Origin: an uncultured Chloroflexia bacterium
Lineage (GTDB): Bacteria; Chloroflexota; Limnocylindria; Limnocylindrales; CSP1-4
Assembly: GCA_963731635.1 (NCBI GenBank)
Contig: CAVSWB010000004.1
Coordinates: 240,780 to 304,779 of the forward strand
DNA: 64,000 nucleotides
Direction: 5' to 3'
Shown: one piece after another, positions 40,515-43,476 of the stretch
Layout of the letters: the number at the start of each line of letters is the position of its first letter
Position numbering within the stretch: the stretch's first letter is position 1
Program-made: the position numbers and the translations under genes
Notes under the pieces: model-generated
The model's database searches: none
The model's input: only the letters and a program-made list of their open reading frames with translations
Told to the model about the DNA's origin: nothing

Positions 40515-40591
40515 GCAACCAGCCCGGAACCAGAGCGCGACCCGAGGTCCACCCCGTCGCTACTGAACACCGCCTCACGCAACCCTACGCT
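40515..40591 (+). promoter_or_regulatory. amtB1 promoter: five 11-bp-periodic boxes plus -10 TACGCT
   Basis: GCAACC 40515, GGAACC 40526, GCGACC 40537, TCCACC 40548, GCTACT 40559; TACGCT 40586. Confidence 0.78.
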
Positions 40592-40652
40592 TTCGCGAGC
40601 CGGCGGAGAGCTTTCCGTTCGGTTGCGGCAATGGGACGAAGGAGAAACGCGC

Positions 40653-41876
40653 GTGATCAACTCCGGCGATACCGCCTGGGTACTTACCTCGACGGCGCTC
40701 GTCATGTTGATGACGCCCGGTCTGGCCCTCTTCTACGGCGGCCTCGTACGCCGCAAGAACGTGCTCAGCACGATCATGCACAGCGTCTTCATCCTGGCGC
40801 TCGTGAGCGTCACGTGGGTCCTGTTCGGGTTCACCCTGGCCTTCGGCAAGGACGTCAACGGCTGGGGGATCATCGGCGGAATCGATTACATCGGTCTGCA
40901 CGGCGTGGGCAAGGAGCCTTTGACCCAGTACGCACCGACGATCCCCGGGTCGGCCTTCATGGCCTTCCAGATGATGTTCGCCGTCATCACTCCGGCCCTG
41001 ATCACCGGTGCTTTCGCCGAACGCAAGCGCTTCAAGGCCTTCGTCCTGTTCTCGCTCCTGTGGACGCTGGTCGTCTACTCGCCGATCGCCCATTGGGTCT
41101 GGGGCGATGGCGGCTGGCTGCGCAATCTCGGCGTGCTGGACTTCGCGGGCGGCACGGTCGTCCACATCAGCTCCGGCGTTGCGGCGCTGGTCGCCGCCCT
41201 CGTCCTCGGCCCGCGTGTCAAGCGGGAGTCGGAGCGCTTCGAGCCGCACGACGTCCGACTGACCGTGATCGGAGCGGCGCTGTTGTGGTTTGGCTGGTTC
41301 GGCTTCAACGGCGGATCCGCTCTGGCGGCCAACGGCACGGCCGCGAACGCGTTCGTGGTCACGAACACGGCGGCGGGCATGGCGGCGCTGACCTGGGTCA
41401 CCGTCTCGTGGCTGCACAAGGGCACTCCCAGCGTGACCGGAGCCGTGGCGGGCGGTGTGGCCGGGCTGGTGGCCATCACGCCGGCCTCGGGTTTCGTGGA
41501 CGCCAGCTCGGCCATCATCATCGGCCTTGCCGCCGGCATCACCTGTTACGCCGCCATCCTCCTGCGTGAGCGGCTCAAGGTCGACGACGCGCTCGACGTC
41601 TGGGCCGTCCACGGCGTGGGCGGGACTCTCGGCGCGATCCTGACCGGCGTCTTTGCGGTGGCTGCCGTCGGTGGCGCATCGGGCCTCGTCGACGGCAATG
41701 CCGGCCAGGTCGGCAAGCAGCTGGTCGCGGTGGCGGCGACCTGGATCTACAGCGGTATCGCCACCTTTGCGATTCTCAAGATCGTCGACTTCTTCGTCGG
41801 GCTCCGAGTGGAGGAGGCCGAAGAAGAGGCGGGCCTGGACTCCTCCCAGCACGGCGAGGTTGCATGGCAGAGCTAG
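40653..41876 (+). CDS. amtB: Ammonium transporter (copy 1)
   Basis: GDTAW, TPGLALFYGG, FQMMFA, DFAGGTVVH, WFGWFGFNGGS, DDALDV, HGVGG, GLD..QHGE. Confidence 0.97.
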   Translation: MINSGDTAWVLTSTALVMLMTPGLALFYGGLVRRKNVLSTIMHSVFILALVSVTWVLFGFTLAFGKDVNGWGIIGGIDYIGLHGVGKEPLTQYAPTIPGSAFMAFQMMFAVITPALITGAFAERKRFKAFVLFSLLWTLVVYSPIAHWVWGDGGWLRNLGVLDFAGGTVVHISSGVAALVAALVLGPRVKRESERFEPHDVRLTVIGAALLWFGWFGFNGGSALAANGTAANAFVVTNTAAGMAALTWVTVSWLHKGTPSVTGAVAGGVAGLVAITPASGFVDASSAIIIGLAAGITCYAAILLRERLKVDDALDVWAVHGVGGTLGAILTGVFAVAAVGGASGLVDGNAGQVGKQLVAVAATWIYSGIATFAILKIVDFFVGLRVEEAEEEAGLDSSQHGEVAWQS

Positions 41877-41979
41877 GAGCTTCTCCGGCCGCCTGACGAG
41901 ACTCCGGCCCCCGGATCGCCCAACCGCCGGATTCCGAAACGGTTCGCCCGAACCGGTCGCTGAGACGTGTCCCCCAACG

Positions 41980-42056
41980 GCAACCGCCGCGCCACCAGAG
42001 CGCTACCCGAGGGTTACTCGGCCGCTACTGAAACGCGCTTCCGGCCTCCCTACGCT
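41980..42056 (+). promoter_or_regulatory. amtB2 promoter: five 11-bp-periodic boxes plus -10 TACGCT
   Basis: GCAACC 41980, GCCACC 41991, GCTACC 42002, GTTACT 42013, GCTACT 42024; TACGCT 42051. Confidence 0.8.
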
Positions 42057-42117
42057 TCCCAGGCCGAAACCTTTGCCTGCGTTTCGTTGCGAGTGGGGAA
42101 CCTGAGGAGTCTCGATT

Positions 42118-43338
42118 TTGAATGCCGGCGACACCGCCTGGGTCCTGACGGCGACCGCGCTCGTCATGTTGATGACACCCGGACTGGCCCTCTTCTACGG
42201 CGGCCTCGTCCGCCGCAAGAACGTGCTCAGCATCCTGATGCAATGCATGTTCATCCTGGCCCTGGTCAGCGTGACCTGGGTGCTGGTCGGTTACACCCTC
42301 GCCTTCGGGCAGGACGTCAACGGCTGGGGGATCATCGGAAACCTCGACCACATCGGCCTCAAGGGCATCGGGGTGGCGCCAGGGCCGTATGCGAGCACCA
42401 TTCCATCCACGGCCTTTGCGCTGTTCCAGATGATGTTCGCGATCATCACCCCGGCTCTCATCATCGGCGCCTTTGCCGAGCGCAAGCGCTTCAAGGCTTT
42501 CGTGCTGTTCGCGCTGATGTGGAGCCTTCTCGTCTACTCGCCGATTTGCCACTGGGTCTGGGGCCAGGGCGGCTGGTTGGCCAAGATGGGCGTCATGGAC
42601 TTCGCCGGCGGCACCGTCGTCCACATCAGCTCTGGCGTTGCGGCGCTGGTCGCGGCCCTGGTGCTGGGGCCACGCGTCAAGCGCGAGTCCGACCGCTTTG
42701 AGCCCCATGACGTCCGACTGACCGTCATCGGGGCCGGAATCCTGTGGTTCGGCTGGTTCGGGTTCAACGGCGGTTCGGCGCTCGCGGCCAACGGGCTCGC
42801 CGTCAACGCCGTCCTCGTAACCAATACCGCCGCCGGCATGGGCGCCCTGACCTGGATGACGATGAGCTGGCTCCACAAGGGCTCGCCCAGCGTGATCGGC
42901 GCCGTTTCGGGCGCGATCGCGGGCGAAGTCGCCATCACGCCGGCCTCGGGCTTCGTGGATCCGAGCTCGGCGATCGTGATCGGCTTCATCGGTGGCGCCG
43001 TCTGTTACGGCGCGATCCTGCTCCGCGAGCGCCTCAAGGTCGACGACGCGCTCGACGTCTGGGCCGTCCACGGTGTCGGCGGGACCCTCGGCGTTCTGCT
43101 GACGGGCGTCTTCGCAGTCGCGGCCGTGCATGCCGGGTATTCCGGTTTGATCGACGGTAACCCCGGACAGGTCGGCACCCAGCTCGTTGCCATCGCCGCG
43201 GTGTGGATCTACAGCGCCGTCGCGACGCTGGTCATCCTCAAGGTCGTGGACCTGGCCGTGGGTTTGCGGGTTGGCGCCGAGGAGGAAGAAGCGGGGTTGG
43301 ACGTCTCGCAACACGGCGAGGCCGTATTCCAGTCCTAG
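42118..43338 (+). CDS. amtB: Ammonium transporter (copy 2)
   Basis: Same Amt motifs as copy 1; TTG start after GAGGAG. Confidence 0.97.
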   Translation: MNAGDTAWVLTATALVMLMTPGLALFYGGLVRRKNVLSILMQCMFILALVSVTWVLVGYTLAFGQDVNGWGIIGNLDHIGLKGIGVAPGPYASTIPSTAFALFQMMFAIITPALIIGAFAERKRFKAFVLFALMWSLLVYSPICHWVWGQGGWLAKMGVMDFAGGTVVHISSGVAALVAALVLGPRVKRESDRFEPHDVRLTVIGAGILWFGWFGFNGGSALAANGLAVNAVLVTNTAAGMGALTWMTMSWLHKGSPSVIGAVSGAIAGEVAITPASGFVDPSSAIVIGFIGGAVCYGAILLRERLKVDDALDVWAVHGVGGTLGVLLTGVFAVAAVHAGYSGLIDGNPGQVGTQLVAIAAVWIYSAVATLVILKVVDLAVGLRVGAEEEEAGLDVSQHGEAVFQS

Positions 43339-43399
43339 CGCAACCTCGGTTGCATTCGGCGAGCGGGCCGGGGATCGAAACAGGCGTTCGTACCGAACG

Positions 43400-43476
43400 G
43401 CAACCCCCGCGCCACCCCGGCGCTACCGACCGGCCACCGCCGCGCTACTGATATCGGCCGGCTCCCTCAATAGACT
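43400..43476 (+). promoter_or_regulatory. Third copy of the amt-type promoter, upstream of a microprotein ORF
   Basis: GCAACC 43400, GCCACC 43411, GCTACC 43422, GCCACC 43433, GCTACT 43444; TAGACT 43471. Confidence 0.78.

What the first reader, a model, noticed from the sequence alone, without database searches (positions are those of the whole stretch)
40515..43476. Three promoters with identical geometry: 5 x (GCnACC-N5) ending GCTACTGA, then TAnnnT exactly 27 bp after the start of the last box
Boxes start at 40515/26/37/48/59, 41980/91/42002/13/24 and 43400/11/22/33/44. The -10 hexamers are TACGCT 40586, TACGCT 42051 and TAGACT 43471. A CTGAnn -35-like hexamer overlaps the last box with a 17-bp spacer in all three. 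Spacer bases vary while phase is kept, which indicates selection on a cooperative activator array on one helical face. The 11-bp period recalls actinobacterial GlnR boxes (GTnAC-n6-GAAAC), but the consensus differs.
Basis: seen in the sequence. Interest (0 to 1): 0.8.

Follow-up and report, generated by a model that had tools for sequence, protein, structure and literature searches.

The report
Repeat-array promoters for ammonium uptake genes
Three neighbouring promoters, two for ammonium transporters and one for a tiny membrane peptide, each carry the same row of 11-base repeats, which most likely lets a neighbouring two-component regulator switch them on together when nitrogen is scarce.

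Summary
A weight matrix built only from other genomes scores the three sites 93.5, 80.6 and 72.7 bits; the next best place in the 3.25-Mb assembly scores -35.8.

The strict array occurs in 47 of 51 genomes of the genus, 114 hits in total. A reversed control gives 0. The -10 hexamer sits at the same offset in 75 of 76 arrays.

Each array really has six in-phase units, because a conserved CGTCCyGAAC element lies one period upstream. The targets are amt1, amt2 and a conserved 27-aa membrane peptide under coding selection.

A canonical OmpR-family response regulator and a soluble GAF histidine kinase lie convergent beside the array. My best reading, at 0.6, is that the phosphorylated regulator fills the repeats head to tail and activates weak sigma-70-type promoters under nitrogen limitation. 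The architecture resembles GlnR at actinobacterial amtB, but GlnR membership fails: a kinase is present, the regulon is tiny and the boxes differ.

No transcription start or binding data could be obtained.

The family also seems to lack PII proteins, found in 1 of 61 genomes.

This is a new member of a known kind.

The parts
40504..40568 (+). Array 1: weak box0 (CTTTCT GAACC), five boxes starting at 40515/26/37/48/59, and the -35-like CTGAAC (40563-40568) overlapping the last box
   Evidence: 72.7 bits with the matrix built from other genomes
40586..40591 (+). -10 hexamer TACGCT of the amt1 promoter; start site predicted near 40598 (inference)
   Evidence: offset conserved in the genus
40653..41876 (+). 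amt1, ammonium transporter; GTG start after the Shine-Dalgarno site GAAGGAG at 40638-40644
   Evidence: Pfam PF00909 E 5.8e-130; TIGR00836 476.8 bits, over its cut-off; N-terminus VINSGDTAW shared with relatives
41969..42033 (+). Array 2: box0 (GTCCCC CAACG, displaced by one base), five boxes starting at 41980/91/42002/13/24, and the -35-like CTGAAA
   Evidence: 80.6 bits
42051..42056 (+). -10 hexamer TACGCT of the amt2 promoter
42118..43338 (+). amt2, second ammonium transporter (TTG start)
   Evidence: Pfam PF00909 E 1.5e-131; TIGR00836 475.2 bits
43389..43453 (+). Array 3: box0 (CGTACC GAACG), five boxes starting at 43400/11/22/33/44, and the -35-like CTGATA
   Evidence: 93.5 bits
43471..43476 (+). 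-10 hexamer TAGACT of the peptide promoter
   Evidence: 23 of the peptide-type promoters in relatives also read TAGACT
43489..43503 (+). Small hairpin at the 5' end of the peptide transcript (AGGGAC-GGG-GUCCCU)
   Evidence: fold not better than shuffles, z -0.43; one pair covaries, C-G to U-A in 9 of 27 sequences
43527..43610 (+). 27-aa hydrophobic peptide gene (VIAAAFISFAILVVAWFVAPSRAHEAE), Shine-Dalgarno site GAAGGAG at 43513-43519
   Evidence: no Pfam or NCBIfam family
43657..43710 (+). Terminator-like hairpin with a U-rich tail after the peptide gene
   Evidence: -24.6 kcal/mol, z -1.37, weak alone; nearly the same sequence follows the peptide gene in G016; missed by the simple terminator scan
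43728..44441 (-). OmpR/PhoB-family response regulator P0001 with a canonical receiver; candidate binder of the arrays
   Evidence: Pfam PF00072 and PF00486; sequence; PDB matches
44470..45864 (-). Soluble GAF-HisKA-HATPase histidine kinase P0002; candidate nitrogen sensor
   Evidence: Pfam; GAF stretch matches NF008283; no transmembrane stretch

Best explanation
The three sites are activator-dependent sigma-70-type promoters of a very small ammonium-uptake regulon: amt1, amt2 and a 27-aa membrane peptide.

Each promoter has a TAnnCT -10 and a poor -35 (CTGAnn). The -35 is overlapped by the last of six 11-bp direct repeats, with unit roughly (C)G-C/T-n-A-C-C, that span about -94 to -34.

The repeats are most likely the operator of the OmpR/PhoB-type response regulator encoded convergently next to the cluster (43728-44441). 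Its partner is a soluble GAF-domain histidine kinase (44470-45864).

Inferred mechanism:
1. When nitrogen is scarce, the kinase phosphorylates the regulator. The GAF domain may read glutamine or 2-oxoglutarate.
2. Regulator molecules bind head to tail, probably starting at the promoter-distal units, which are the best conserved.
3. They then fill the proximal units cooperatively.
4. The molecule at the -35 position recruits RNA polymerase.

Shown here: the anatomy, its uniqueness in the genome, its conservation, its targets, and its linkage to the two-component system.

Inferred only: which protein binds, activation rather than repression, and the signal.
For: Anatomy, uniqueness and conservation
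- Anatomy and genome-wide uniqueness.
- The strict array is found in 47 of 51 genus genomes (114 hits). The reversed control gives 0 in 51. A pattern I mis-phased by error hits 2 of 51 genomes and not G000.
- The -10 sits at a fixed offset in 75 of 76 arrays.
- Information content is high at box positions, box0 and the -10, and about 0.1-0.9 bits in most spacer positions.
- The three promoter types agree on box0, on the A-C(-C) core of the boxes with the base or two before each, and on the -10, but not on most spacer positions.

Targets
- Every array in 29 genus loci plus the window precedes an amt gene or the peptide gene.
- The 4 genus genomes without arrays also gave no amt match.

Weak core promoter
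- The consensus scan finds 0 sigma-70-like sites in 40400-43800. This fits dependence on an activator.

The regulator
- It has a canonical receiver and a winged-helix domain.
- Its DNA-binding domain alone matches RegX3 best (6e-11) and M. tuberculosis GlnR (8hih) second (2e-8).
- GlnR and its relatives bind 11-nt direct repeats head to tail, around the -35 element of amtB (PMC10235972, passages read).

Linkage
- The kinase is present in 24 of 24 genus genomes drawn.
- In 18 sources with both on one stretch, the regulator lies 0.3-1 kb (13 sources) or about 7 kb (5 sources) from the peptide-type array.
- In G007 the distance is about 22 kb.
- In other genera the trio recurs. In g8 the order is kinase, regulator, then a convergent amt. 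In g24 the regulator is followed by five in-phase boxes and amt, with the kinase convergent. In g4 amt lies about 7 kb from the regulator and kinase.

The distal element
- The distal element CGTCCCGATTCGCMACC-N5-GNCACC occurs upstream of amt in g8 and in one g4 genome (G340). In the other two g4 hits the open frame my script printed downstream was not an Amt, though tblastn places amt about 130 bp downstream in one of them (G098). The control gives 0 in 151 genomes.
- There the -10-like TACnGT lies 71 or 82 bp from box0, one 11-bp period apart.

The kinase
- It has no membrane segment.
- Its GAF region matches the N-terminal GAF part of model NF008283 (E 8e-28, far below that model's cut-off). 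I take that model to be PtsP (EI-Ntr) from recall.
- Glutamine binds the EI-Ntr GAF domain (PMC4848567, passages read).
Against: - No transcription start, expression or binding data.
- The regulator is assigned by linkage and family only. G000 encodes 19 proteins with this DNA-binding domain.
- Three genus genomes at least 90% complete (G010, G018, G024) keep the kinase and regulator but show no amt gene and no array. The system may therefore have other targets, or those regions are unassembled.
- No array lies upstream of the kinase-regulator operon. It starts within about 13-90 bp of the argG stop and looks co-transcribed with arginine genes.
- The strict array is confined to one genus: 0 of 123 genomes of other genera in the family. 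Relatives carry only degenerate versions.
- Five loci of other genera with a 57-63% identical kinase showed no regulator within the 10 kb fetched downstream.
- The link from the GAF domain to a nitrogen signal rests on a weak sub-threshold match.
Confidence: 0.6

Rival explanations
1. The arrays are bound by a different OmpR/PhoB-type protein encoded elsewhere. The main candidate is the atypical, probably orphan regulator at window 20392-21192 (minus strand), acting like actinobacterial GlnR. Another of the remaining response regulators, or the SARP-like protein on contig 1, is also possible.
For: - G000 has 19 Trans_reg_C proteins.
- The protein at 20392-21192 has a degenerate receiver. It matches M. 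tuberculosis GlnR (8hih) at 4.6e-18, third in its list of solved structures.
- Where present, it is syntenic about 18-25 kb from the arrays.
- Direct repeats with an AC core at an 11-bp period are common to many regulators of this family (PMC3561978, passages read).
Against: - The atypical protein is found in only 35 of 51 genus genomes. It is missing, with this query, from G008, G052, G009, G005 and G063. Each of these carries three arrays and is at least 91% complete.
- It is not adjacent to the arrays, whereas the kinase-partnered regulator is.
- Its best matches in the Protein Data Bank are RegX3 and MtrA, the same as for the adjacent regulator.
- No other regulator of this family lies within the cluster.
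Confidence: 0.2
2. The same protein-DNA arrangement acts as an operator for repression. Filling the units down to the -35 region would block RNA polymerase when nitrogen is plentiful.
For: - The last unit overlaps the -35 region.
- Regulators of this family can repress from such positions (PMC11825685, abstract seen in the search listing: PhoP acts as activator or repressor).
Against: - The core promoters are poor. The -35-like hexamer matches TTGACA at 3 of 6 positions by my reading, and the consensus scan finds none in the region. There would be little to repress.
- The geometry is the one used for activation by GlnR at amtB (PMC10235972, passages read).
- Ammonium transporters are typically induced on nitrogen limitation (established knowledge, not tested here).
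Confidence: 0.1
3. The repeats are not a protein-binding array. They would be a by-product of recent duplication of one promoter region, or of composition.
For: - amt1 and amt2 are paralogues, about 79% identical. A duplicated promoter is therefore plausible as the origin.
Against: - The three arrays in one genome differ in most spacer positions but keep boxes, phase and the -10.
- The same holds across 47 genomes whose kinases are only 75-88% identical.
- The third array drives an unrelated gene.
- The mis-phased and reversed controls are empty or nearly so.
Confidence: 0.03

Closest known systems
GlnR-dependent amtB promoters of actinobacteria (Streptomyces coelicolor, Mycobacterium)
   Same: - An OmpR/PhoB-type regulator binds 11-nt direct repeats head to tail around a non-optimal -35.
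- amtB is the model target. Four protomers are seen in the cryo-EM complex, and the S. coelicolor amtB promoter has three boxes, that is six sites (PMC10235972, passages read; PMC3561978, passages read).
- The DNA-binding domain of the adjacent regulator has GlnR as its second-best solved match.
   Different: - GlnR is an orphan regulator, whereas a cognate kinase lies adjacent here.
- GlnR sites alternate gTnAc and GaAAc, whereas the units here are uniform G-C/T-n-A-C-C with a distinct distal CGTCCyGAAC.
- GlnR is a global regulator, whereas only three sites exist in this genome.
- The lineage is probably not actinobacterial. The nearest Atlas clusters of the kinase are commonest in Chloroflexota, which is a lead only.
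PhoP PHO boxes of Streptomyces (11-nt direct repeat units)
   Same: Arrays of two to seven 11-nt direct repeat units are bound by an OmpR-type regulator, including at nitrogen genes (PMC3561978, passages read).
   Different: No phosphate-regulon targets carry the array here, as only the amt and peptide promoters have it. That the unit resembles the PHO repeat is my recollection and was not tested.
OmpR at ompF and ompC in E. coli (three contiguous sites, about -100 to -40)
   Same: Six tandem half-sites at a 10-11 bp period end at the -35 region. The distal site has high affinity and the proximal sites fill cooperatively. This is recalled from textbook knowledge; no paper was read here.
   Different: The signal, kinase type (membrane-bound EnvZ against a soluble GAF kinase), targets and consensus all differ.
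GAF domain of EI-Ntr (PtsP), a glutamine sensor
   Same: The kinase's GAF region (residues 36-199) aligns with positions 4-167 of model NF008283 (E 8e-28). Glutamine binding to the EI-Ntr GAF domain inhibits autophosphorylation (PMC4848567, passages read).
   Different: The score of 97 bits is far below the model cut-off of 583. The output domain is a histidine kinase, not a PTS enzyme. The ligand was not tested. Naming that model PtsP is from recall.

Membership tests
Operator of an OmpR/PhoB-family response regulator (class II-type activation) | Tandem direct repeats at a 10-11 bp period on one strand | tested here: met
   Six units at an exact 11-bp period in three sites. There are no indels between box 1 and the -10 in 75 of 76 genus arrays.
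Operator of an OmpR/PhoB-family response regulator (class II-type activation) | The proximal repeat overlaps a poor -35 at a fixed distance from a -10 | tested here: met
   CTGAnn overlaps box 5, with a 17-bp spacer to TAnnCT. No consensus promoter is found in the region.
Operator of an OmpR/PhoB-family response regulator (class II-type activation) | A regulator of the family is encoded and linked | tested here: met
   PF00072 plus PF00486 at 43728-44441. The linkage is conserved in the genus and recurs in genera g4, g8 and g24.
Operator of an OmpR/PhoB-family response regulator (class II-type activation) | Binding of the regulator to the repeats and activation of transcription | not testable with these tools
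   This needs gel-shift, footprinting or in vitro transcription assays.
Actinobacterial GlnR regulon | Orphan regulator without a cognate kinase | tested here: not met
   A GAF histidine kinase lies 28 bp upstream in the same orientation.
Actinobacterial GlnR regulon | GlnR box with alternating a-site gTnAc and b-site GaAAc | tested here: not met
   The consensus units are GCAACC, GcCACC, GnnACC, nnnACy and GcTACT. Only the box0 plus box1 pair matches loosely, at 6 of 9 specified bases by my reading.
Actinobacterial GlnR regulon | Global nitrogen regulon (glnA, nitrite reductase, urease and others) | tested here: not met
   Only three sites occur in 3.25 Mb. The next candidates lie inside open reading frames. 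The assembly scores 68.8% complete, so some sites could be unseen.
Actinobacterial GlnR regulon | Sequence relationship of the regulator to GlnR | tested here: inconclusive
   Full-length best matches are RegX3, MtrA and PrrA; GlnR is not in the best 60. With the DNA-binding domain alone, GlnR (8hih) ranks second at 2e-8.
NtrC / sigma-54 nitrogen promoters | A -24/-12 promoter and a sigma-54 gene | tested here: not met
   No Sigma54_DBD match in G000 (the genome is incomplete). TGGC-N8-TGC occurs at chance level. The two hits inside the arrays are on the opposite strand and are box sequences read in reverse.
Known RNA families in the leaders | A match to an Rfam model | tested here: not met
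   An E-value scan of 40300-43800 gave only three chance-level hits.

The most novel reading that the evidence does not exclude
A nitrogen-control circuit that works without PII proteins. In a bacterial family where GlnB/GlnK is found in 1 of 61 genomes, a soluble GAF histidine kinase would read glutamine or 2-oxoglutarate directly. Its regulator would polymerise along six in-phase repeats to switch on two ammonium transporters. The co-induced 27-aa membrane peptide would act on the transporters in the membrane, taking over the gating role that GlnK has elsewhere, or would feed back on the system.
Probability: 0.2. Interest if true: 0.75.

Novelty: new member of a known kind. Interest (0 to 1): 0.5.

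Why it matters
The site gives a clean, testable model of nitrogen control in an uncultured, probably Chloroflexota lineage for which I found nothing in print.

- The regulon has only three promoters.
- The operator grammar is unusually regular, with six units, a fixed phase and a fixed distance to the -10.
- The candidate sensor-regulator pair sits next door.
- The family appears to lack PII proteins, so ammonium uptake must be controlled by another route.
- A conserved micro-protein is co-regulated with the transporters, which adds a candidate small membrane regulator.

The regular arrays would also suit quantitative study of how tandem response-regulator binding sets a promoter's threshold.

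Tried and rejected
- Rfam scan of 40300-43800 at E up to 10: only three chance-level hits, so no riboswitch or known small RNA.
- NCBIfam: no response regulator of G000, and neither the kinase nor the adjacent regulator, reaches any equivalog cut-off.
- The search for related loci in genome contigs with the regulator returned only generic response regulators at 34-45% identity, and none from the genus.
- My first genus-wide pattern was mis-phased (9 N throughout). It hit 2 of 51 genomes and not G000, so I use it only as an accidental control.
- My amt1 query in the scripts was one base out of frame. All Amt hits there therefore come from the amt2 query.
- Extra hits of the distal matrix at C1:1148699 and C1:923884 lie inside long open reading frames and were rejected.
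- A relaxed pattern with 2 mismatches in the four genus genomes without arrays gave no more hits than the reversed control.
- The consensus promoter and terminator scan found nothing in the region.
- Folding energies of the leader hairpin and of the terminator-like hairpin are not better than shuffles.
- One metatranscriptome run held 7% of the sampled words.
- A literature search with a guessed class name listed nothing relevant.
- Complex prediction was not used. The peptide is shorter than the 30 residues the tool asks for, and I claim no binding.
- Sigma-54/NtrC, ArgR boxes and palindromic CRP/NtcA-type sites were considered. Sigma-54 was tested. The others were rejected because the repeats are direct, which is inference.
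- A SARP-type site was considered. From recall, its proximal repeat lies 8 bp from the -10, whereas 21 bp separate box 5 from the -10 here.
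Full report
**What is there.** There are three arrays of five hexamers, read G-C-n-A-C-C, that start every 11 bp. Each array ends GCTACTGA. A TAnnCT hexamer lies 27 bp after the start of the last box, and a CTGAnn hexamer overlaps the last box with a 17-bp spacer. One period upstream of each array lies a sixth unit. It is weak at 40504, displaced by one base at 41969 and good at 43389.

**Is it more than chance?** The window counts are modestly significant. The genome-wide counts are decisive.
- On both strands of the 3.25-Mb assembly, only 5 positions match 21 or more of the 25 specified bases. 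All 5 lie inside the three arrays.
- A weight matrix covering box0 to the -10 was built from 72 arrays of other genomes, with G000 excluded. It scores the three sites 93.5, 80.6 and 72.7 bits, and the next best position -35.8.
- A matrix of the distal part alone gave two further candidates. Both lie inside long reading frames.

One caveat applies: the assembly scores 68.8% complete by marker genes.

**What the promoters drive.**
- The first two arrays precede two paralogous ammonium transporter genes, at 40653-41876 and 42118-43338. Both are PF00909 and reach the TIGR00836 cut-off.
- The third precedes a short self-contained unit. It has a small 5' hairpin, a Shine-Dalgarno site identical to that of amt1, a 27-codon reading frame (43527-43610) for a hydrophobic peptide, and a terminator-like hairpin.
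- The peptide gene is real. It was found in 28 of 30 sources examined (29 genus loci plus the window). The two without it are separate amt loci.
- Its third codon positions vary three times as much as the first and second (0.351 against 0.112 and 0.111).
- It matches no Pfam or NCBIfam family. Its 17-residue hydrophobic core scores 2.68 on the Kyte-Doolittle scale.

**Conservation.**
- A strict in-phase pattern (AAC-N9-ACY-N8-AC-N9-ACY-N8-ACTG) occurs in 47 of 51 genomes of the genus. There are 114 hits, mostly two or three per genome spaced about 1.4-1.5 kb apart. The reversed control gives none.
- A version that I mis-phased by error hits 2 of 51 genomes.
- In 29 fetched genus loci plus the window, every array precedes an Amt gene or the peptide gene. 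This includes two arrays at separate amt loci.
- In 75 of 76 arrays the -10 (TAnnnT) starts exactly 71 bp after box 1. The exception is an overlapping register of a longer array.
- Information content is 1.0-2.5 bits at box positions, although part of that is forced by the search pattern.
- At positions the pattern does not force, it reaches 2.2-2.4 bits in box0 (CGTcCcGAAC), 1.9 bits for the T of the last box, 1.6-2.3 bits in the GATT that follows, and 2.4-2.5 bits at TA and T of the -10. Most spacer positions carry 0.1-0.9 bits.
- The consensus sequences of the three promoter types (28 amt1-type, 19 amt2-type, 28 peptide-type) agree on CGT.C.GAACG .CAACC....C G.CACC...GC G..ACC....G ...AC..G... 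G.TACTGATT, and on .T.C.TA..CT.
- The spacers are thus largely, though not wholly, free. The base or two before each box belongs to the unit.

**Taxonomic range.**
- In a class-wide draw, the strict pattern is confined to the genus. It occurs in 13 of 14 genus genomes plus G000. It is absent from 123 genomes of other genera in the family and from 263 genomes of four other families.
- Degenerate relatives do exist. The distal element CGTCCCGATTCGCMACC-N5-GNCACC occurs in 3 of 10 genomes of genus g4 and in one of g8. The control gives 0 in 151 genomes, and one further hit in g9 looks like chance.
- An Amt reading frame follows the element in the g8 genome and in one g4 genome. For a second g4 genome, tblastn places amt about 130 bp downstream, though the frame my script printed there was not an Amt. 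For the third I have no amt evidence.
- In those genera a TACnGT hexamer lies 71 or 82 bp from box0, one 11-bp period apart.
- In genus g24 an amt gene is preceded by five in-phase boxes (GTCACC, GCTACC, TGCACC, GCTACC, CCGACC).

**The candidate regulator.**
- Convergent with the peptide gene lie a response regulator (43728-44441, minus strand) and, 28 bp upstream of it, a histidine kinase (44470-45864).
- The regulator has the acidic pocket, the phospho-acceptor Asp, and the Thr and Lys of a canonical receiver, plus a winged-helix Trans_reg_C domain.
- The kinase has GAF, HisKA and HATPase_c domains and no membrane segment.
- Full-length, the regulator's best solved relatives are RegX3, MtrA, PrrA and M. 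tuberculosis PhoP. With the DNA-binding domain alone, RegX3 is first and M. tuberculosis GlnR (8hih) second.
- The kinase is present in 24 of 24 genus genomes drawn.
- In 13 sources the regulator lies 0.3-1 kb from the peptide-type array. In 5 sources it lies about 7 kb away, with an ABC exporter pair and a PAS-LuxR gene in between. In one genome it lies about 22 kb away.
- The same trio recurs in other genera in different arrangements.
- This linkage, together with the known habit of the family to bind 10-11 bp direct repeats head to tail (PMC10235972 and PMC3561978, passages read), is the basis for assigning the arrays to this regulator. It is inference, not proof.

**A rival regulator.** The window also encodes an atypical OmpR-type protein with a degenerate receiver (20392-21192, minus strand). 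It matches GlnR at 4.6e-18. It is found in only 35 of 51 genus genomes. It is missing, with this query, from at least five genomes that are at least 91% complete and carry three arrays each. I therefore rank it second.

**Results against my reading.**
- There are no start-site, expression or binding data.
- Four genus genomes lack arrays, and the same four gave no amt match. That fits array-amt coupling.
- However, three of those four keep the kinase and regulator. The system may therefore have other targets, or the amt cluster is unassembled there.
- The kinase-regulator operon has no array of its own. It begins within about 13-90 bp of the argG stop, so it may be transcribed with arginine genes.
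- Five loci of other genera with a 57-63% identical kinase showed no regulator in the 10 kb fetched downstream.
- The kinase's GAF stretch matches model NF008283 at 97 bits against a cut-off of 583. Calling that model PtsP is my recollection. The glutamine-sensing precedent (PMC4848567, passages read) is only an analogy.

**Mechanism proposed.** The promoters are intrinsically weak. The consensus scan finds none in the region, and by my reading the -35-like hexamer matches TTGACA at 3 of 6 positions. Counting from a start site about 7 nt after the -10, the six units span roughly -94 to -34. I propose the following sequence.
1. The phosphorylated regulator binds as head-to-tail dimers.
2. Binding starts at the distal units, which are the only ones conserved across genera.
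3. The proximal units fill cooperatively.
4. The protomer over the -35 contacts RNA polymerase, as GlnR does at amtB.

Sigma-54 control is excluded. No Sigma54_DBD match was found in G000, and there is no -24/-12 motif on the right strand.

**Comparison with known systems.**
- The architecture matches GlnR at actinobacterial amtB, Streptomyces PHO boxes and, from recall, OmpR at ompF.
- Membership in the GlnR regulon fails on three tested features: GlnR is an orphan, its boxes alternate a and b sites, and its regulon is global.
- I found nothing in print on such a system in Chloroflexota. The searches were made, and of their results only the listings were seen.
- The phylum itself is only a lead from the Atlas.

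**Seen in passing.** PII proteins (PF00543) were not found in G000, and were found in only 1 of 61 family genomes, 58 of which are of high quality. The same search rings in 13 of 14 control genomes. The amt genes here have no glnK partner, which makes a kinase-based route to nitrogen control more interesting.

**Verdict.** This is a new member of a known kind, with some unusual context: the PII-less family, the soluble GAF kinase, the three-promoter regulon and the co-regulated micro-protein.

Noticed in passing
whole genome G000 and family f1: PII signal proteins (PF00543) were not found in G000 and were found in only 1 of 61 genomes drawn from 32 genera of the family. 58 of the 61 are at least 90% complete and at most 5% contaminated. 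The same search rings in 13 of 14 control genomes. The amt genes have no glnK partner.
   Followed up: partly
window 43483-43710: The third promoter drives a self-contained transcript of about 220 nt. It has a 5' hairpin with one covarying pair, a conserved 26-27-aa single-helix peptide (consensus about MIAAAFxSFxxLVVxWFVAPSR), and a terminator-like hairpin. The peptide has no known family.
   Followed up: partly
window 20392-21192 (minus strand): An atypical OmpR-type protein with a degenerate receiver domain and no adjacent kinase was noticed. It matches RegX3, MtrA and GlnR among solved structures and is present in 35 of 51 genus genomes.
   Followed up: partly
window 45878-47848 (minus strand): One uninterrupted reading frame of 656 codons holds an arginine-repressor DNA-binding domain (residues 60-123) and argininosuccinate synthase (residues 231-616). 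It could be an ArgR-ArgG fusion, or an upstream extension of the frame. The kinase gene follows its stop within about 13-90 bp.
   Followed up: no
window 38891-48510: Arginine genes flank the cluster on both sides in convergent orientation. argH lies upstream of amt1 on the plus strand. argB, the ArgR domain and argG lie upstream of the kinase on the minus strand.
   Followed up: no
L152 2660-9700 (G016), and likewise G019, G017, G022, G004: About 7 kb is inserted between the peptide gene and the regulator. It holds two ABC exporter genes and a PAS-LuxR regulator. In G007 the gap is about 22 kb.
   Followed up: partly
family f1: The GAF kinase has two tiers of relatives in the family, at 60-66% and 45-56% identity. 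Some genomes hold both, which suggests an old duplication of the two-component system. G000 shows only one copy.
   Followed up: no
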